Positions 2,311 to 7,517 of a DNA stretch of 7,865 nt are shown piece by piece; positions within the stretch are counted from its first letter, which is position 1; each line of letters opens with the position of its first letter. The stretch lies in the IMG/VR virus record IMGVR_UViG_2690316115_000018. One strand, written 5' to 3'. A program made the position numbers and the translations under genes. This DNA comes from a virus (taxonomy: Duplodnaviria > Heunggongvirae > Uroviricota > Caudoviricetes). Under the pieces are notes generated by a model, which saw nothing but the letters and a program-made list of their open reading frames with translations, had not been told where the DNA came from and ran no database searches.

Positions 2311-2538
2311 ATGTTGAAAATTGATGCTATAGCGTTTTTTGGCAGCAAAACAAAGCTTGCCAATGTCGCAGGAGTTAGGCTGGCAAGCGTTGCTGCATGG
2401 GGGGAACTGGTTCCTGAAGGTCGCGCGATGCGCCTGCAAGAGGCATCCGGCGGGGAACTTCAGTACGACCCCAAAGTTTATGACGAATATCGTAAGGCAA
2501 AGCGGGCGGGGCGGTTGAACAATGAAAATCACCACTGA
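2311..2538 (+). CDS. dicC: DicC / P22-Cro-like small DNA-binding regulator (YdaS family)
   Basis: 75 aa; RBS AAGGGG about 7 nt upstream; C-terminal LVPEGRAMRLQEASGGELQYDPKVY resembles P22 Cro (VIPEKDAYRLEIVTAGALKYQ) and my recollection of K-12 DicC; divergent from dicA-like repressor. Confidence 0.85.
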   Translation: MLKIDAIAFFGSKTKLANVAGVRLASVAAWGELVPEGRAMRLQEASGGELQYDPKVYDEYRKAKRAGRLNNENHH

Positions 2539-3073: not shown

Positions 3074-4085
3074 AAAGGTGAAAACCGGCAGTTCATCCAG
3101 TAAGTCAGTATTGACCTGGCTTGCTGATATGTGCGGTGCCGATTTGTGTGCATACCCGTCTGTATCTGCACTGGCAGAAGTAACGGAACTGAACAAAAAG
3201 ACTGTGCAGGACAGCTTACGACACCTGATGGAGATTGGGTTAATTGTTGATACCGGTGAGAGAAAAGGCAGAACAAAGCAAATTGTGGTGTACCGACTTA
3301 TCGGTGTAGAAGAAAGTGTTGCCGAGCCTGAATACACCCAAAAACGGGAGTCTTTAAAGGTGGGTAAAATTGGTGCTGTTAATAAAAACAGTACCGAAAA
3401 TGGTTATGTTTCAGCACAAAACAGACCCAAAAACAGAACTCTTAGCTGCATGGAAAATAACCAAAGACACCCAAATTTTCCATCAAAGACACCCAAAAAC
3501 GGATCACGGAACCCAAAGGAACCCAAAGATCTAAACCCCACACATAACGCACGCGAGAGTGCTCCGACCAGTGAGCAGGAAGTTTTGTCGTTACAGGCAG
3601 CCCCCCCTGTATTCCTGTATGGCCTGAGCGAACCCATCGGAAAATTCCCGATGAGCGATAGCTGGTATCCGTCACGGGATTTTCGACGACGGGCTGCGTT
3701 GTGGGGGATGGCTTTGCCGGAGACAGAATTTACACCTGCTGAACTTGCCGCCTTCCGGGACTACTGGGCAGCGGAGGGGAAAGTGTTTACGCAGATTCAG
3801 TGGGAGCAGAAATTCGCCCGTCACGTAAATCACGTCAGGGCGCAGGTTAAACCAGTCAGCAAAGGGGTAAACCATGCAGCAGCACCAGGTGGCACCGCAT
3901 CACGGGCAGTTCAGGAAATTCGGGCAGCACGTGAGCAGTGGGAACGTGAAAACGGATTTATCAGCGACGGAAACGGCCTGGAAGCTGTGGGAACTCATGG
4001 GGGTGGTTTATTCGAACCGCTGGATCCAGAAGAACGGGGCCGCACCTTCGAAGCTCTGGATTGCACAGATTGGCGCGATGACTGA
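3045..4085 (+). CDS. replication initiator: N-terminal HTH (O-like) fused to a DnaT-like C-terminal domain
   Basis: ATG 3045 with AGGGG 5 nt upstream (longer ORF-track start 2970 lacks RBS); N-terminus is replication-protein-type HTH; C-terminal segment IGKFPMSDSWYPSRDFRRRAALWGMALPETEFTPAELAAFRDYWAAEGKVFTQIQWEQKFAR aligns by eye with my recollection of E. coli DnaT ([61 protein letters not shown]); central low-complexity linker coincides with iteron-like repeats. Confidence 0.8.
   Translation: MSIDALRWAKKVKTGSSSSKSVLTWLADMCGADLCAYPSVSALAEVTELNKKTVQDSLRHLMEIGLIVDTGERKGRTKQIVVYRLIGVEESVAEPEYTQKRESLKVGKIGAVNKNSTENGYVSAQNRPKNRTLSCMENNQRHPNFPSKTPKNGSRNPKEPKDLNPTHNARESAPTSEQEVLSLQAAPPVFLYGLSEPIGKFPMSDSWYPSRDFRRRAALWGMALPETEFTPAELAAFRDYWAAEGKVFTQIQWEQKFARHVNHVRAQVKPVSKGVNHAAAPGGTASRAVQEIRAAREQWERENGFISDGNGLEAVGTHGGGLFEPLDPEERGRTFEALDCTDWRDD
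3424..3540. repeat. iteron-like direct repeats (ACCCAAA core) inside the initiator gene, candidate replication origin
   Basis: GACCCAAAAAC (3424-3434), AAAGACACCCAAA twice (3463-3475, 3485-3497), tandem GGAACCCAAAG (3508-3518, 3518-3528); encodes the linker between the two initiator domains, the position oriLambda occupies in lambda O. Confidence 0.5.
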
Positions 4086-4539
4086 GCAGCAAATCCGGCA
4101 GGTCTGCCGCCAGTGCATGGACCGCTGCCGGGCGGGTGAAACATGGCCTCCGGACCTGGCTGAGTTTGTGGCACTGATTTCGAAAAGCGGAGCCAATCCA
4201 TTCGGTCTGACGGTGGATGCTGTGATGGAGGAGTACCGCCGCTGGCGCAATGAGTCCTGGCGATACGACGGAAGTGATAAGTACCCGTGGTCTCAGCCTG
4301 TGCTGTATCACATTTGCCTCGAGATGCGTTCAAAGGGGATTGAGCGCCAGATGACCGAAGGGGAATTAAAACGGCTTGCAGAACGGCAACTGACGAAATG
4401 GGCAAAGCATGTTAGTAACGGCCTGAGCGTTCCGCCAGTCCGGCGACAACTGGCGGCCCCCAAACGCCCGTCGGGGCCAACGCCAATTGAGTTGCTGAAA
4501 CAGGAATATGAACGCCGGAAAGCGGCTGGTTTTGTTTGA
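3874..4539 (+). CDS. lambda-P-like replication protein (helicase loader); start uncertain
   Basis: motifs ETWPPDLAEFVALI and YPWSQPVLYHICLEMR parallel my recollection of lambda P (PSPGQFVAWCREEA, YPWKSNAHYWLVTNLYQNMR); ATG 3874 has AGGGG 6 nt upstream; alternative starts GTG 3946, ATG 3997, ATG 4078; every start overlaps the initiator gene in another frame. Confidence 0.7.
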   Translation: MQQHQVAPHHGQFRKFGQHVSSGNVKTDLSATETAWKLWELMGVVYSNRWIQKNGAAPSKLWIAQIGAMTEQQIRQVCRQCMDRCRAGETWPPDLAEFVALISKSGANPFGLTVDAVMEEYRRWRNESWRYDGSDKYPWSQPVLYHICLEMRSKGIERQMTEGELKRLAERQLTKWAKHVSNGLSVPPVRRQLAAPKRPSGPTPIELLKQEYERRKAAGFV

Positions 4540-4572
4540 GTTGAGAAGTGATTTTTTACCGGGAGGAAATTT

Positions 4573-5307
4573 ATGGAGACTGTTTTTGACGCACTGAAAG
4601 CGATGGGAAAAGCCACGTCGGTAGAGCTGGCTGCGCGACTTGATATCAGTCGTGAAGAAGTACTGAACGAGCTGTGGGAACTGAAAAAGGCTGGCTTCGT
4701 TGATAAAAGCGTATACACCTGGCGTGTGGCTGATAACAACGTTCAGCAGGAACAGCCAGCGCCAGAAGAAACCACCACGGCAACAGAAGCGAAAATCTCA
4801 GAGTGCGATTTAACCGCGACGATTGAACAACGCGGACCACAAACGGCGGATGAACTGGCTACGCTGTTCGGTACAACATCCCGCAAAGTTGCTTCAACGC
4901 TGGCAATGGCAATCAGCAAAGGTCGTCTGATTCGCGTAAACCAGAACGGTAAAATTCGTTACTGCATACCAGGTGATAATTTACCAGCAGAGCCGAAAGT
5001 TGAATCGGTAGCGGAAACCGATGGTAAAGCCTTTCCTCAGCCAGCCGGTGTTGCGTTACCGGTACAGAAAGATGCAACACAGGAAGATATTAAAACAGAA
5101 ACTGTGGCGGACATTGTGCAGTCGCTGCCATCGTTTACTGCAACGCGAGAAGATGATTTGATTTTGCCATCGCTGCATATGGCAAATCGCGAACTGCGTA
5201 GGGCGAAGAATCATGTCCAGAAGTGGGAGCGAGTCTGCGCCGCGCTGCGGGAGCTGAACAAGCACCGGGATATGGTTGCCGGGATTTGTCGGAAGTCCGG
5301 GCAATGA
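4573..5307 (+). CDS. hypothetical phage protein, winged-helix-like N-terminus (possibly DUF1627-type)
   Basis: 244 aa; GGGAGG RBS 6 nt upstream of ATG; N-terminal 60 aa and a second segment ([31 protein letters not shown]) look like wHTH units; family name is recollection only. Confidence 0.65.
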
Positions 5308-5468
5308 GCGGATGGTGCAGGCCTGAAATCATGATACTAACAATGAAGGTAAAATGCATCGGCAGTCTGATTGGTCGTAGTGAGGCGGCGGTCAGGATGA
5401 AAGCCCAGGTTAAGGGAATAAGCCTGATTCTGCGGGGTGATTTTCACCAGTCAACAAAATATCCGTAG
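5304..5468 (+). CDS. small ORF (54 aa) with ATGA start/stop overlap to upstream gene
   Basis: ATG 5304-5306 overlaps TGA 5305-5307 of the preceding gene; no recognisable domain; may instead be the first fragment of the frameshifted remnant that follows. Confidence 0.3.
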
Positions 5469-5915
5469 CGCGATAACGGTCAAAAATTATGGCGCTGACA
5501 CTTTTGTGCCACTGGAGATGACTGTACCTAAGTTCAGGGGAGAAGAACACGTCCGGTGGGATGGTCGGGCCAGATTTAAAGGGCAGGTCATGGCTCCAGC
5601 CTGTACGCTGGCAATGGAGGCTGCCTGGCGGGAAATTGATATGGGAACCACGCCACTCAGGGATTTACTGCCGGTCCAGAGAATAAATTCCTGTTACGGT
5701 TACACCACTGTGATCTTGCAAGTGCAGGAAAGTAGGTCTACACGGTAACGCGAGTGCGTGTAACTTTTGATGTCATTCCCGTAGAAACACCGGACAAATT
5801 TTCGCTGACAGGTCATGCAGAAGGTATAAATCTGCAGATTATGGACAATTACGGATATCCGGCAAGAGCCGGAAAAAGCATGCCGCCTCTAATTCTCAGT
5901 GGAAGATGGACTTGA
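5437..5915 (+). pseudogene. possible frameshifted gene remnant (open frames 5437-5748 and 5736-5915)
   Basis: GC-normal region whose open reading switches frame twice (frame of 5304, then frame of 5437, then frame of 5769); no good RBS for the 103-aa ORF (GTG start); no family recognised. Confidence 0.25.
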
Positions 5916-5974
5916 TTATACTCATTGCATTGTCAGAAATAGTTATCCATTAAAGGCTGGCTATTCCAAACAGG

Positions 5975-6002
5975 ATGTTGATTACAAAAATGTAATCAAC
6001 AT
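5975..6002. promoter_or_regulatory. 28-bp palindrome ATGTTGATTACA-aaaa-TGTAATCAACAT upstream of the binding-protein gene
   Basis: perfect 12-bp arms read directly; AT-rich region 165 bp upstream of the ATG; a TATAAT hexamer lies at 6029-6034. Confidence 0.4.
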
Positions 6003-6166
6003 GTAAGGTTTATACTCTTCAATATGCGTATAATTTTCCTTATTTTGTTGACTTTAAATAACAAGCTATGCACGAGGTAAAGTCGGATAAGTTTATCTGG
6101 ATGTAATATATATTATTTGTAGTGTTTATAACTTTATTTCATGATAACCAATAAAAGGAGTTTTTT

Positions 6167-6925
6167 ATGAGGAGCATAATGGCAGGTTTTTTAATATTCC
6201 TGTCTTCTGCTGCTTATGCTGATATCAATCTGTATGGTCCTGGTGGCCCGCATACAGCCTTGCTTGATGCAGCCAAACTTTATGCCGAAAAAACAGGTAT
6301 TATAGTGAACGTTCATTACGGCCCACAGAACAAATGGAATGAAGATGCCAAAAAAAATGCAGATATCTTGTTTGGCGCATCAGAACAATCTGCTCTGGCT
6401 ATCATTCGGGACCATAAAGACAGCTTCAGTGAAAAAGATATTCAGCCTCTTTATCTGCGAAAAAGTATTTTACTGGTAAAGAAAGGTAATCCTAAAAATA
6501 TCCGGAGTATTGACGACCTGACCAGACCTGGGATTGGCGTAATTGTTAATGATGGTGGTGGTACCAGTAATACATCAGGCACTGGCGTCTGGGAAGATAT
6601 TGCCGGACGTAAAGGGAATATAGAAACTGTCGCCGCAATCCGAAAAAATATTATTTTATATGCGCCCAATAGCGGAACTGCACGTAAGGCTCTTGAGAAT
6701 CAGCCTGGAGCAGATGTCTGGATAACCTGGGCTGACTGGGCAGCCAGTAATCCAGAAATTGGTGATGTCGTGGAAATAGCGCCAGACTACGTGATATGGC
6801 GTGATATGAACATTACAGTACGTCAGGATGCAAATGATGAAACCCGTCGATTTGCAGAATGGCTACAAACCGATGAAGCGGCGCCTGCATTCAAAAAATA
6901 TGGCTGGACCAGGAAAGGCACTTGA
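6167..6925 (+). CDS. secreted orphan periplasmic solute-binding protein, ModA-like (PBP type 2) fold; prophage moron
   Basis: 252 aa; AAGGAG 6 nt upstream of ATG; Sec signal peptide MRSIMAGFLIFLSSAAYA with AYA-D cleavage motif, no lipobox Cys; C-terminal FAEWLQTDEAAPAFKKYGWTRKG parallels my recollection of ModA (FYDYLKGPQAAEIFKRYGFTIK); low-GC gene with AT-rich upstream region; no permease or ATPase genes nearby. Confidence 0.75.
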   Translation: MRSIMAGFLIFLSSAAYADINLYGPGGPHTALLDAAKLYAEKTGIIVNVHYGPQNKWNEDAKKNADILFGASEQSALAIIRDHKDSFSEKDIQPLYLRKSILLVKKGNPKNIRSIDDLTRPGIGVIVNDGGGTSNTSGTGVWEDIAGRKGNIETVAAIRKNIILYAPNSGTARKALENQPGADVWITWADWAASNPEIGDVVEIAPDYVIWRDMNITVRQDANDETRRFAEWLQTDEAAPAFKKYGWTRKGT

Positions 6926-6928
6926 CAT

Positions 6929-6957
6929 CCTCGTCCTTCAGGACGTGGATTCTTTTT
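6929..6957 (+). terminator. putative rho-independent terminator after the binding-protein gene
   Basis: hairpin CCTCGTCC-ttca-GGACGTGG (one mismatch) followed by ATTCTTTTT, 4 nt after the TGA stop. Confidence 0.45.
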
Positions 6958-7044
6958 CCGGATGCCGCGCCAGCGGCATGTAGGGGCAGCTCACAAAACG
7001 GAAAAAATTGTACGCTAAGCCTCGCCAGGTGAACTGAATTCATT

Positions 7045-7068
7045 CCGATATGGGAATTCCCATATCGG
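7045..7068. promoter_or_regulatory. perfect 24-bp palindrome CCGATATGGGAATTCCCATATCGG upstream of the hok promoter
   Basis: reverse complement identical to itself; ends 12 bp upstream of the putative hok -35; function unknown. Confidence 0.4.
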
Positions 7069-7079
7069 GCGAAAACGGT

Positions 7080-7107
7080 TTGCTGTAACGGCAGAGTTAA
7101 GTAGGAT
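7080..7107 (+). promoter_or_regulatory. putative hok mRNA promoter (-35 TTGCTG, 16-nt spacer, -10 TAGGAT)
   Basis: hexamers read from sequence; places the transcript start at about 7111-7116, where the sequence GGTGCTTGAGGCTATCTGCCTC resembles the 5' end of plasmid R1 hok mRNA as I recall it. Confidence 0.45.
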
Positions 7108-7110
7108 TGC

Positions 7111-7260
7111 TGCGGGTGCTTGAGGCTATCTGCCTCGGGCATGAACACCAACGGCAGATAGATAAAAGCCCCACCCGACTATAAATCGAAGTGAGGCCCC
7201 TATATGCTCGTCACATATAGATTGCCTCTTACGGACCGAAAGGTCAAGGAGAAGCAGGCT
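7111..7260 (+). promoter_or_regulatory. hok mRNA 5' leader with tac-like hairpin and 5'/3' fold-back element
   Basis: hairpin GAGGC-tatct-GCCTC (7122-7136); alternative pairing CTATCTGCC (7125-7133) with GGCAGATAG (7155-7163); 5' end TGCGGGTGCTTGAG (7111-7124) is complementary to 3' CTCAACGCACCCGCA (7467-7481). Confidence 0.5.
7155..7215 (-). ncRNA. putative Sok-like antisense RNA (approximate bounds)
   Basis: by analogy to the sokC/mokC arrangement; minus-strand -35 TTGACC (rc of plus 7242-7247) overlaps the hok SD region, but the -10 at 17-nt spacing (CAATCT) is weak, and no clear terminator was found; existence not demonstrated. Confidence 0.3.
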
Positions 7261-7416
7261 ATGAAGCAGCAAAAGGCGATGTTAATCGCCCTGATCGTCA
7301 TCTGTTTAACCGTCATAGTGACGGCACTGGTAACGAGGAAAGACCTCTGCGAGGTACGAATCCGAACCGGCCAGACGGAGGTCGCTGTCTTCACAGCTTA
7401 CGAACCTGAGGAGTAA
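7204..7416 (+). CDS. Mok-like reading frame (in-frame N-terminal extension of Hok, 70 aa)
   Basis: ATG 7204 in frame with hok; extension MLVTYRLPLTDRKVKEKQA resembles my recollection of K-12 MokC (MLNTCRVPLTDRKVKEKRA). Confidence 0.5.
   Translation: MLVTYRLPLTDRKVKEKQAMKQQKAMLIALIVICLTVIVTALVTRKDLCEVRIRTGQTEVAVFTAYEPEE
7261..7416 (+). CDS. hokD: Hok-family type I toxin, HokD(RelF)-like, 51 aa membrane peptide
   Basis: MKQQKAMLIALIVICLTVIVTALVTRKDLCEVRIRTGQTEVAVFTAYEPEE matches my recollection of E. coli HokD and is close to HokC/Gef; AAGGAG 9 nt upstream; single transmembrane helix. Confidence 0.9.
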   Translation: MKQQKAMLIALIVICLTVIVTALVTRKDLCEVRIRTGQTEVAVFTAYEPEE

Positions 7417-7485
7417 GAGACCAGGCGGGGGAGAAATCCCTCGCCACCTCTGATGTGTCAGGCATCCTCAACGCACCCGCACTTA

Positions 7486-7517
7486 ACCCGCTTCGGCGGG
7501 TTTTTGTTTTTATTTTC
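7486..7517 (+). terminator. rho-independent terminator of hok mRNA
   Basis: hairpin ACCCGC-ttcg-GCGGGT followed by TTTTTGTTTTTATTTT. Confidence 0.75.

What the first reader, a model, noticed from the sequence alone, without database searches (positions are those of the whole stretch)
5900..6925. AT-rich moron encoding a secreted orphan ModA-fold binding protein
A low-GC gene with its own AT-rich upstream region, strong RBS and a typical Sec signal peptide encodes a 252-aa periplasmic substrate-binding-protein-like product, yet no ABC permease or ATPase gene is nearby. An orphan secreted binding protein carried as prophage cargo between replication genes and a hok locus is unusual. It could act as a lysogenic-conversion factor, for example ligand scavenging or interference with phage entry at the envelope; these roles are speculative.
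Basis: partly seen in the sequence, partly recalled or inferred. Interest (0 to 1): 0.65.

Follow-up and report, generated by a model that had tools for sequence, protein, structure and literature searches.

The report
Known E. coli virulence gene paa/adfO
The flagged gene is real and is prophage cargo as described, but it is the long-known virulence-associated gene paa (also called adfO) of EHEC/EPEC, a stand-alone exported binding protein of the AcfC/PEB3 family, so the finding is ordinary.

Summary
ORF 6167-6925 (+) encodes a 252-aa protein with a strong ribosome-binding site and a Sec-type signal peptide (predicted cleavage AYA|DINLYGPGG). Its leader is 27% GC against a backbone of about 49% GC, and no ABC permease or ATPase gene is nearby. 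It lies between lambdoid replication genes and a hok/sok locus.

It is not an unknown orphan. The DNA is 100% identical to a RefSeq locus annotated "paa: AcfC family adhesin Paa". It occurs in 611 of 5426 complete E. coli genomes. It is the published paa/adfO gene (z2053, O-island 57 of O157:H7), and the hok next to it is the published ckf (z2054).

The protein is about 52% identical to the solved structures of C. jejuni PEB3 and V. cholerae AcfC (E about 1e-81, TM 0.95-0.97). ModA is only a distant fold relative (TM about 0.7, 16% identity).

- The portable unit (about 5973-6985: leader, gene, terminator) is shared with IncF plasmids.
- It is fused to a truncated PapH-like fimbrial gene remnant.
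- The whole insert fills a variable slot between the DUF1627 gene and hok.
- Lack of an ABC partner is a trait of the family: 78 of 80 species loci have no ABC ATPase within 1 kb.

The molecular mechanism (adhesin, ligand sensor or transport protein) remains unresolved in the literature. Novelty: already known.

The parts
5277..7096 (+). Cargo block inserted into the lambdoid/Rac-type backbone between the DUF1627 (ydaW-like) gene and the hok/sok locus
   Evidence: Homology to Rac-type phage MN652886 stops at 5276 and resumes at 7097. That phage carries lygF and HP1-5 in the same slot. The whole block 5277-7420 is present in 573 complete E. coli genomes.
5304..5468 (+). Small hypothetical ORF (54 aa) at the left end of the block
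   Evidence: RefSeq CDS WP_001505071.1 in the identical locus. Matches phrog_30109, unknown function, 6.3e-17.
5501..5965 (+). Remnant of a PapH-position fimbrial minor-subunit gene, truncated at both ends and frameshifted (RefSeq pseudogene spans 5473-6006)
   Evidence: 86% identical to an intact fimbrial gene that lies between the major subunit gene and the usher gene of a Pap-like operon in E. coli EC50 (L089 8931-9518). RefSeq note: 'frameshifted; internal stop'. No Pfam hit for the broken frames.
5973..6985 (+). Portable paa unit: AT-rich leader, CDS and terminator
   Evidence: 85-89% identical over exactly this span to IncF plasmids pSTEC388_3 (L002) and E. albertii pEA26_2 (L003). Homology ends on both sides.
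5975..6002 (.). Perfect 12-bp inverted repeat with a 4-nt spacer (ATGTTGATTACA aaaa TGTAATCAACAT) at the left edge of the paa unit; candidate operator or insulating hairpin
   Evidence: Found. Conserved in the plasmid leaders. As RNA it folds at -14.3 kcal/mol, z = -5.5. Its function was not tested.
6029..6034 (+). Candidate -10 hexamer TATAAT of the paa promoter
   Evidence: Invariant in all three aligned leaders. There is no good -35 hexamer, and the consensus scan did not report it, so this is an inference only.
6155..6160 (+). Shine-Dalgarno AAGGAG, 6 nt before the ATG
   Evidence: Conserved in the plasmid leaders.
6167..6925 (+). paa / adfO coding sequence (252 aa plus stop), AcfC/PEB3-family substrate-binding-fold protein
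6167..6220 (+). Sec-type signal peptide (residues 1-18, predicted cleavage AYA|D); no lipobox cysteine
   Evidence: The mature PEB3 crystal chains start at the aligned residue. pLDDT is below 50 for residues 1-15.
6566..6598 (+). Codons for the invariant loop S134-N-T-S-G-T-G-V-W-E-D144, which contains the residues equivalent to the PEB3 ligand-site pair T138/S139 (Paa T136/S137)
   Evidence: Invariant in 15 diverse family members. Numbering checked against the K135E difference between PDB 3fir and 3fjg. The role of T138/S139 comes from Min et al. 2009, recalled from memory; that paper is not held.
6932..6958 (+). Terminator-like hairpin CGTCC-TTCA-GGACG followed by a T-rich tract, 7 nt after the stop codon and inside the portable unit
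   Evidence: Consensus scan. Fold energy -12.9 kcal/mol, z = -2.5. A modest signal.
7114..7416 (+). Adjacent hok/sok type I toxin-antitoxin locus (published as ckf, z2054; RefSeq hokD at 7261-7416; mok frame at 7204-7416); part of the phage backbone, not of the paa unit
   Evidence: Rfam sok 103.9 bits. HOK_GEF 2.9e-23. phrog_251 MokW-like. RefSeq hokD. Literature.

Best explanation
[quoted passage not shown] It sits in an ompW-type lambdoid prophage of attaching-and-effacing or Shiga-toxigenic E. coli. It is a self-contained promoter-gene-terminator cassette of low GC, about 1.0 kb long. The same cassette circulates on IncF plasmids. In this prophage it is fused to a dead PapH-like fimbrial gene fragment, and it fills a variable cargo slot between the DUF1627 gene and hok/sok. 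The product is exported by Sec and cleaved after Ala18. It folds as a two-lobed class-II substrate-binding protein of the AcfC/PEB3/Paa family. The inter-lobe pocket is built from the invariant loops GPGGPH, SNTSGTGVWED and PNSG. By homology with PEB3 and AcfC, I infer that it binds a small anionic ligand such as a phosphorylated C3 acid, a sulfated group or a carboxylate. It has no dedicated ABC transporter, which is normal for this family. In published work, loss of paa or adfO reduces attaching-and-effacing lesions and cell adherence. Shown: the gene's identity, its fold family, its orphan status, its cassette anatomy, and its transcription in a lysogen. Inferred: signal-peptide cleavage, the class of ligand, and whether adherence is promoted directly (as an adhesin) or indirectly (by ligand sensing or uptake). 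The confidence value applies to identity, family and cassette anatomy (near certain) together with the general 'exported ligand-binding protein that promotes colonisation' model. The precise mode of action is left open among the rivals.
For: Identity: 100% DNA identity to E. coli 2013C-4081, where the gene is annotated 'paa: AcfC family adhesin Paa'. It is present in 611 of 5426 complete genomes, at 582 chromosomal and 36 plasmid places. PPompW prophage records annotate it 'porcine attaching-effacing associated protein Paa/adherence factor'. Reviews equate adfO/z2053 with Paa and ckf/z2054 with the adjacent hok, and report reduced HeLa adherence for an adfO mutant. Family: phmmer against PDB gives PEB3 1.2e-81 and AcfC 3.4e-81. 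The AF2 model (pLDDT 89.5) matches 4jb7 and 3fj7 at TM 0.96-0.97 and 52% identity. Pocket loops are invariant across 15 members from 6 or more genera. Orphan status: there are no ABC genes in the annotated locus. An ABC ATPase lies within 1 kb in only 2 of 80 species loci. Cassette: homology boundaries at 5973 and 6985 against plasmids, and at 5276 and 7097 against a Rac-type phage. The GC contrast is and the terminator hairpin. Expression: the EDL933 gene is induced in bovine rumen and rectum contents. Homologue function: AcfC is periplasmic, binds sulfated glycans and mucin, and affects chemotaxis and gut distribution. PEB3 is described as a transport protein for 3-phosphoglycerate.
Against: The primary Paa, AdfO and PEB3 papers (Batisson 2003, Ho 2008, Imamovic 2010, Min 2009, Rangarajan 2007) are not in the held library. 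Their results are therefore cited second-hand or from memory. No ligand has been shown for Paa itself. The homologues carry conflicting functional labels: adhesin, transporter component and chemotaxis protein. The AcfC mutant showed no adhesion defect, so 'adhesin' may be a misnomer. Promoter assignment is weak, because the consensus scan found no promoter inside the leader. Signal-peptide cleavage is predicted, not measured.
Confidence: 0.85

Rival explanations
1. Paa is a genuine surface adhesin. After export, some of it reaches the cell surface and binds host structures directly, such as sulfated glycans or mucin, and this mediates the early attachment that precedes intimin-Tir binding.
For: RefSeq and the literature name it an adhesin. 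paa or adfO mutants adhere less and form fewer A/E lesions. Recombinant AcfC binds heparin, chondroitin sulfate and mucin in ELISA. From memory (Batisson 2003, not held): anti-Paa antibodies reduced A/E lesions.
Against: The protein has no outer-membrane anchor, lipobox, autotransporter domain or fimbrial features. The fold is a soluble periplasmic binding protein. AcfC fractionated to the periplasm, and its deletion did not change adhesion to Caco-2 or HT29-MTX cells. A review notes that the PEB 'adhesins' are probably transport proteins.
Confidence: 0.25
2. Paa is an orphan ligand sensor. When loaded with ligand, it docks on a host-encoded chemoreceptor or another membrane signal transducer. 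This steers EHEC/EPEC towards mucus or host-derived metabolites, and adherence defects follow indirectly.
For: In V. cholerae, acfC lies directly downstream of the chemoreceptor gene acfB (L031), and the AcfC mutant is defective in chemotaxis to mucin. Across 80 species loci, regulators or transducers lie within 1 kb in 19 loci (ECF sigma 9, LysR 5, histidine kinase 4, MCP 1), against an ABC ATPase in 2. The EDL933 gene is co-induced with chemotaxis genes in bovine gut contents.
Against: There is no chemoreceptor or sensor gene next to paa in the prophage or on the plasmids. No E. coli partner is known. The regulatory neighbours occur mostly in the distant environmental subfamily (45-49% identity). 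Gene neighbourhood alone does not prove interaction.
Confidence: 0.2
3. Paa is a nutrient-capture binding protein. It hands phosphorylated or sulfated metabolites to a transporter encoded elsewhere in the genome, and colonisation benefits are metabolic.
For: PEB3 is described as a transporter component for 3-phosphoglycerate and related phosphates, and is required for wild-type chick colonisation. PDB entries show PEB3 with L-phospholactate and AcfC with D-aspartate bound. The PEB3 ligand-site residues are conserved in Paa. One distant member (L053) does sit directly after two ABC permease genes and an ATPase gene.
Against: No cognate permease is known for any characterised member. 78 of 80 loci lack an adjacent ABC ATPase. 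E. coli already takes up phosphoglycerates and sulfate by other systems (general knowledge).
Confidence: 0.2
4. One reading: a prophage-encoded envelope protein that protects the lysogen, for example by blocking entry of other phages or by scavenging oxyanions as ModA does.
For: It is prophage cargo adjacent to a hok/sok addiction module. It shares the fold class of ModA and sulfate-binding proteins.
Against: No PADLOC defence model matches. The same cassette is carried on plasmids, and the family occurs chromosomally in many non-phage contexts. The ModA and sulfate-SBP models score far below their cutoffs: 18.3 against 62.5 bits, and 22.6 against 288 bits. Published phenotypes concern host colonisation.
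Confidence: 0.03

Closest known systems
Paa / AdfO of attaching-effacing and Shiga-toxigenic E. coli (z2053, OI-57 / PPompW prophage)
   Same: It is the same gene. DNA identity is 100% to a RefSeq paa locus and 99.9% to O157:H7, O26, O103, O111 and O145 strains and to PPompW prophage records. The neighbours are the same: DUF1627, fimbrial pseudogene and hokD/ckf.
   Different: Nothing material. The window allele differs by one nucleotide in 1026 from the common O157 allele.
Plasmid-borne paa variants (IncF plasmids of porcine STEC/ETEC-type E. coli, E. albertii, Salmonella)
   Same: The same leader-gene-terminator cassette at 85-89% DNA identity, with proteins 87-92% identical. The gene stands alone there too.
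   Different: The flanks differ: replication, partition and toxin-antitoxin genes of plasmids. There is no fimbrial remnant and no hok immediately downstream.
PEB3 of Campylobacter jejuni (PDB 2hxw, 3fj7, 3fir, 3fjg)
   Same: 52% identity over the whole mature protein, TM 0.95-0.96. The ligand-site Thr-Ser pair and the surrounding loop are identical. It also has a Sec signal peptide, no adjacent ABC genes, and a role in colonisation.
   Different: PEB3 is N-glycosylated at a DFNVS sequon that Paa lacks, and E. coli has no PglB (general knowledge). PEB3 is a chromosomal core gene rather than mobile cargo. Its ligands (3-PG, PEP, phosphate, citrate) have been shown experimentally, which is not the case for Paa.
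AcfC of Vibrio cholerae (PDB 4jb7)
   Same: About 50% identity (the AcfC paper gives 47%), TM 0.97. It is carried on a horizontally acquired element (the TCP island), is periplasmic, and acts as a colonisation factor.
   Different: acfC is co-transcribed with the chemoreceptor gene acfB and regulated by ToxT. paa has no such partner. The AcfC mutant shows a chemotaxis defect rather than an adhesion defect.
ModA and Sbp/CysP/SubI oxyanion-binding proteins of ABC importers
   Same: The same class-II (cluster D) two-lobe fold and Pfam family SBP_bac_11. The anion-binding loops sit at helix N-termini.
   Different: Only 12-19% identity, TM about 0.6-0.73. The equivalog and subfamily models score far below their cutoffs. 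There are no modBC or cysTWA genes nearby.

Membership tests
AcfC/PEB3/Paa family (and the named gene paa/adfO) | Near-identity to the annotated paa/adfO locus | tested here: met
   100% over 1026 nt to NZ_CP027573 paa (WP_053896405.1). 563 records at 99% identity or more. Phage records annotate it as Paa.
AcfC/PEB3/Paa family (and the named gene paa/adfO) | Full-length homology and the same fold as the solved PEB3 and AcfC structures | tested here: met
   phmmer 1.2e-81 and 3.4e-81 over residues 11-248. AF2 model TM 0.95-0.97, rmsd 1.1-1.7 Å, 52% identity.
AcfC/PEB3/Paa family (and the named gene paa/adfO) | Conserved inter-lobe ligand site (PEB3 T138/S139 in the SNTSGTG loop) | tested here: met
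   Paa T136/S137 align with PEB3 T138/S139. The whole loop S134-D144 is invariant in 15 members. The functional role of the two residues is recalled from Min et al. 2009, which is not held.
AcfC/PEB3/Paa family (and the named gene paa/adfO) | N-terminal Sec signal peptide; exported protein | tested here: met
   Sequence features and alignment to the mature N-termini of the crystal constructs. Actual cleavage and localisation cannot be tested here.
AcfC/PEB3/Paa family (and the named gene paa/adfO) | Stand-alone gene without a cognate ABC permease or ATPase | tested here: met
   None in the annotated locus. 78 of 80 species loci have no ABC ATPase within 1 kb.
AcfC/PEB3/Paa family (and the named gene paa/adfO) | Contribution to adherence or colonisation | not testable with these tools
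   Literature only: the adfO mutant adheres less to HeLa cells, and Paa contributes to A/E lesions.
ModA (molybdate ABC transporter substrate-binding protein) | Score above the cutoff of the modA equivalog model | tested here: not met
   TIGR01256 scores 18.3 bits against a cutoff of 62.5. The PRK03537 models score 12-18 bits against cutoffs of 246-470.
ModA (molybdate ABC transporter substrate-binding protein) | Adjacent modB/modC transporter genes | tested here: not met
   No permease or ATPase within 9 kb on either side.
ModA (molybdate ABC transporter substrate-binding protein) | Class-II SBP fold | tested here: met
   Foldseek matches ModA 6nio and 1wod at TMq 0.72-0.73 and 16-17% identity. 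This is similarity of fold class only.
Sulfate/thiosulfate-binding proteins (Sbp/CysP) | Score above the NCBIfam subfamily cutoffs | tested here: not met
   22.6 bits against 288, 21.5 against 155.5, and 19 against 308.
Phage moron (autonomous cargo cassette) | Composition distinct from the phage backbone | tested here: met
   Leader 0.269, CDS 0.44 and GC3 0.35, against a backbone of 0.48-0.50.
Phage moron (autonomous cargo cassette) | Absent from the same position in related phages; slot occupied by other cargo | tested here: met
   Rac-type phage MN652886 has lygF and HP1-5 between ydaW (DUF1627) and mok/hok.
Phage moron (autonomous cargo cassette) | Own terminator | tested here: met
   Hairpin at 6932-6945 followed by a T-tract. 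It lies inside the span conserved with plasmids. Fold z = -2.5, a modest signal.
Phage moron (autonomous cargo cassette) | Own promoter | tested here: inconclusive
   A conserved TATAAT at 6029-6034 and a conserved upstream palindrome. No consensus -35 hexamer, and the scan reported no promoter there.

The most novel reading that the evidence does not exclude
Paa is not an adhesin. It is a mobile, plug-in periplasmic ligand sensor. The prophage- or plasmid-borne orphan binding protein captures a host-derived anionic metabolite, such as a phosphorylated C3 acid or a sulfated mucin fragment. It then docks onto a chromosomally encoded chemoreceptor or sensor of the recipient E. coli, rewiring gut-niche targeting, as AcfC is proposed to do with AcfB. 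The conserved palindrome in its leader would then be the operator through which a host regulator controls it.
Probability: 0.2. Interest if true: 0.55.

Novelty: already known. Interest (0 to 1): 0.15.

Why it matters
paa/adfO is a routine marker in virulence typing of EHEC, EPEC and ETEC, so recognising it keeps a known gene from being reported as a discovery. What is still open is how the protein works. The family carries three incompatible labels: adhesin, transport protein and chemotaxis factor. The comparative results here bear on that question. The ligand pocket is invariant. The gene is almost always orphan. Distant members sit next to regulators rather than ABC genes. The ~1-kb cassette moves between prophages and plasmids. 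Together these results argue for ligand binding rather than direct adhesion, but that is a modest refinement and not a new kind of system.

Tried and rejected
1. Reading the primary papers (Batisson 2003, PMC166039; Ho 2008; Imamovic 2010, PMC2976316; Rangarajan 2007, PMC2206636). None is held, so I relied on reviews and citing papers.
2. A literature search for 'PPompW' combined with 'paa' was badly specified and returned only irrelevant papers. A TnphoA search gave nothing usable on Paa export.
3. The hypothesis that paa is a relic of a broken ABC operon is rejected. There are no ABC genes in the locus, and the family is orphan in 78 of 80 species.
4. ModA or sulfate-binding-protein membership is rejected on model scores.
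5. An anti-phage defence role has no PADLOC hit, and PHROGs gives only 'unknown function'.
6. I looked for direct or inverted repeats as transposition scars at the cassette borders. There is no target-site duplication or IS end, only short chance-level repeats plus two palindromes.
7. The consensus promoter scan found no promoter in the leader.
8. One Pfam call failed because of wrong coordinates, and one BLAST script failed on file names. Both were repeated successfully.
9. Clustering of neighbouring ORFs first returned antisense shadow ORFs of the gene itself. I discarded these as artefacts.
Full report
**Observation**

The window has an ORF at 6167-6925 on the + strand that encodes 252 aa. 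AAGGAG lies at 6155-6160, 6 nt upstream of the ATG. The 200-bp leader is 26.9% GC. The CDS is 44% GC (GC3 35%), and the flanking phage DNA is 48-50% GC.

The N-terminus MRSIMAGFLIFLSSAAYA|DINLYGPGG has the features of a Sec signal peptide: a basic n-region, a hydrophobic core and an A-x-A site. It has no lipobox cysteine. Three further points support it:
- The crystallised mature PEB3 chains begin at the residue that aligns with D19.
- The n-region and cleavage site align across 15 homologues.
- AlphaFold is unconfident only for residues 1-15.

Pfam assigns the protein to SBP_bac_11 (5.6e-34).

Upstream lie a cI-like repressor, YdaT, a DnaT-domain O-like protein, lambda-P-like and DUF1627 genes. 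Downstream lies a hok/sok locus (HOK_GEF 2.9e-23; Rfam sok 103.9 bits against a gathering score of 59). No ABC permease or ATPase gene is annotated within 9 kb on either side. The one correction is that coordinate 5900 falls inside a fimbrial pseudogene remnant, not in the paa leader.

**What it is**

The 1026-bp interval is 100% identical to E. coli 2013C-4081, where the gene is annotated 'paa: AcfC family adhesin Paa' (WP_053896405.1). It is 99.9% identical in O157:H7, O26, O103, O111 and O145 strains. It occurs in 611 of 5426 complete E. coli genomes, at 582 chromosomal and 36 plasmid places. Eleven GenBank phage records (PPompW prophages, some carrying an integrated Stx2a phage) annotate it as 'porcine attaching-effacing associated protein Paa/adherence factor'.

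A review of O157:H7 O-islands identifies adfO (z2053, OI-57) as the Paa homologue. It reports that an adfO mutant adheres poorly to HeLa cells and secretes fewer proteins. It also states that adfO is always found together with ckf (z2054), the hok-family gene next door. I measured it here: 573 of about 603 paa-positive genomes carry the whole 5277-7420 block, including hokD.

RNA-seq of EDL933 shows that the gene (called acfC in that paper) is induced in bovine rumen and rectum contents. So it is expressed in a lysogen.

**Protein family**

phmmer against PDB sequences gives C. jejuni PEB3 at 1.2e-81 and V. cholerae AcfC at 3.4e-81 over essentially the whole protein. An AlphaFold model (mean pLDDT 89.5) superposes on AcfC 4jb7 and PEB3 3fj7/2hxw/3fir at TM 0.95-0.97, with rmsd 1.1-1.7 Å and 52% identity.

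ModA, sulfate-binding proteins and ferric or sugar-phosphate binding proteins form a distant second tier, at TM about 0.6-0.73 and 10-19% identity. The NCBIfam modA and sulfate-SBP models score far below their cutoffs. 'ModA-fold' is therefore correct only as a fold class.

An alignment of 15 members from Escherichia, Salmonella, Yersinia, Raoultella, Edwardsiella, Enterobacter, Aeromonas, Francisella, Vibrio, Helicobacter and Campylobacter shows invariant loops: G24-PGGPH29, S134-NTSGTGVWED144, P167-NSG170 and W185/T187/W188/D190/W191. PEB3 residues T138/S139 are, from my memory of Min et al. 2009 (not held), the pair mutated to abolish ligand binding. They align with Paa T136/S137. The numbering is validated by the K135E difference visible between PDB 3fir and 3fjg. 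The pocket is thus conserved. No ligand has been shown for Paa itself.

**Orphan status is a family trait**

Chromosomal homologues in Edwardsiella, Enterobacter, a V. cholerae TCP island and Campylobacter have no dedicated ABC partner. Where an ABC operon lies nearby, it has its own binding protein.

A scan of one genome per species returned 80 loci at 42-87% identity. They extend to Roseobacter/Paracoccus, Flavobacteria, Desulfobulbaceae, Synechocystis and Endozoicomonas. I searched them with profile seeds taken from annotated ABC genes. An ABC ATPase lies within 1 kb in only 2 of the 80 loci: L029, on the opposite strand, and L053, where the homologue directly follows two permease genes and an ATPase gene. 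By contrast, regulators or signal transducers lie within 1 kb in 19 loci: ECF sigma 9, LysR 5, histidine kinase 4, and the V. cholerae chemoreceptor acfB 1. A Lipoprotein_15 secreted-repeat gene lies within 1 kb in 9 loci, and a SLAC1/TehA-type anion channel gene within 3 kb in 9. The gene is therefore not a fragment of a disrupted transporter operon.

**Anatomy of the insert**

Pairwise BLAST maps the boundaries.
- Homology to a Rac-type phage (MN652886) ends at 5276, the 3' part of the DUF1627/ydaW gene, and resumes at 7097, at sok/mok/hok.
- In that phage the slot holds lygF and five small hypothetical genes instead.

Within the 1.8-kb insert there are four parts:
- a 54-aa hypothetical ORF at 5304-5468 (phrog_30109);
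- a fimbrial remnant at 5501-5965, described below;
- the paa unit at about 5963/5973 to 6980/6985, described below;
- a 110-bp spacer that contains a perfect 24-nt palindrome.

The fimbrial remnant is 86% identical to an intact gene that occupies the PapH position (regulator, major subunit, this gene, usher, chaperone) of a Pap-like operon in avian and human E. coli. It is truncated at both ends, and RefSeq marks it 'frameshifted; internal stop'.

The paa unit is shared at 85-89% identity with IncF plasmids from a porcine STEC strain and from E. albertii, where it again stands alone. It includes the AT-rich leader and a hairpin followed by a T-tract, 7 nt after the stop codon. It thus has the classic moron layout.

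In the leader, a perfect 12-bp inverted repeat (5975-6002) and a TATAAT (6029-6034) are conserved between prophage and plasmids. The consensus promoter scan did not call a promoter there, so the promoter assignment is an inference.

**How it most likely works**

The steps shown here are the gene's identity, the fold family, the conserved pocket, the orphan status, the mobile cassette and transcription in a lysogen.

The steps taken from the literature on this gene and its homologues are:
- reduced adherence and fewer A/E lesions in paa/adfO mutants;
- AcfC is periplasmic, binds sulfated glycans and mucin, and affects chemotaxis and gut distribution but not adhesion;
- PEB3 is regarded as a transport protein for 3-phosphoglycerate and related phosphates, and is needed for chick colonisation;
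- PDB entries show PEB3 with L-phospholactate and AcfC with D-aspartate bound.

My best reading is that Paa is a Sec-exported soluble binding protein for a small anionic host-derived ligand, and that its effect on adherence is probably indirect. The three rivals for the mode of action cannot be separated with these tools. They are a direct adhesin, a sensor that docks on a chemoreceptor or kinase, and a donor to an unlinked transporter.

**Comparison, novelty and verdict**

This is the known gene paa/adfO in its known prophage context next to ckf/hok, so it is 'already known'. These are incremental.

Interest is low (0.15). The most novel reading still open is that Paa is a mobile plug-in ligand sensor that couples to host-encoded signalling proteins. 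I give that a probability of about 0.2, and it would be moderately interesting if true.

Noticed in passing
window 5501-5965 (RefSeq pseudogene 5473-6006): A dead fragment of a PapH-position fimbrial minor-subunit gene is fused directly to the left edge of the paa cassette. It is 86% identical to an intact gene in a Pap-like chaperone-usher operon of avian and human E. coli (L089). This suggests that paa was captured from, or together with, a decayed fimbrial locus.
   Followed up: partly
window 5975-6002 and 6029-6034: A perfect 12-bp inverted repeat (ATGTTGATTACA aaaa TGTAATCAACAT) marks the first bases of the paa unit. It is conserved in the plasmid copies, together with a downstream TATAAT. 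It may be an operator or an insulating hairpin. The regulator is unknown.
   Followed up: partly
window 7045-7068: A perfect 24-nt palindrome CCGATATGGGAA|TTCCCATATCGG (RNA fold -17.9 kcal/mol, z = -4.4). It lies in the 110-bp spacer (6985-7097), which matches neither the plasmid paa unit nor the Rac-type backbone. One half-site (GATATGGGAA) also occurs at 5638-5647, inside the fimbrial remnant.
   Followed up: no
L088 (MN652886) 3520-5296 versus window 5277-7096: The interval between the DUF1627/ydaW gene and mok/hok is a variable cargo slot. A Rac-type phage carries lygF and five small hypothetical genes where this prophage carries the fimbrial remnant and paa.
   Followed up: partly
L054, L059, L062, L063, L071, L081, L083, L086; L060, L064-L067, L073, L075-L078: Distant environmental Paa/AcfC homologues (45-49% identity) have recurrent neighbours. 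In Endozoicomonas, Vibrio and Citrobacter these are a Lipoprotein_15 (PF03640) secreted-repeat gene immediately downstream and an ECF sigma factor. In Roseobacter and Paracoccus they are a LysR regulator and a SLAC1/TehA-type anion channel. This points to an uncharacterised anion-sensing or anion-handling module.
   Followed up: partly
L053 5177-5989 (Thermodesulfobacteriota MAG): This is the only locus where the homologue (42% identity) directly follows two ABC permease genes and an ATPase gene on the same strand. It may be a genuine ABC-coupled member of the family.
   Followed up: no
window 7425-7506: A weak match to the Rfam family isrK (Hfq-binding sRNA; 24.9 bits against a gathering score of 50, E = 0.035), just downstream of hok. 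It is below threshold and may be chance.
   Followed up: no
window 2311-2538: The Cro/CI-family gene opposite the repressor reads as an intact 75-aa ORF in the window, but RefSeq flags it as 'frameshifted' in the identical strain. The prophage may be regulatorily defective.
   Followed up: no
L003 6001-6964 (E. albertii plasmid pEA26_2): The plasmid paa copy has no annotated CDS, and its longest open frame starts about 190 nt into the gene. It is probably a pseudogene copy. E. albertii strains are reported to carry two paa loci.
   Followed up: no
window 6803-6817 (Paa D213-M-N-I-T217): Paa carries a D-x-N-x-T bacterial N-glycosylation sequon at a different position from the PEB3 glycosite (DFNVS). 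This is irrelevant in E. coli, which lacks PglB, but could matter for glyco-engineering.
   Followed up: no
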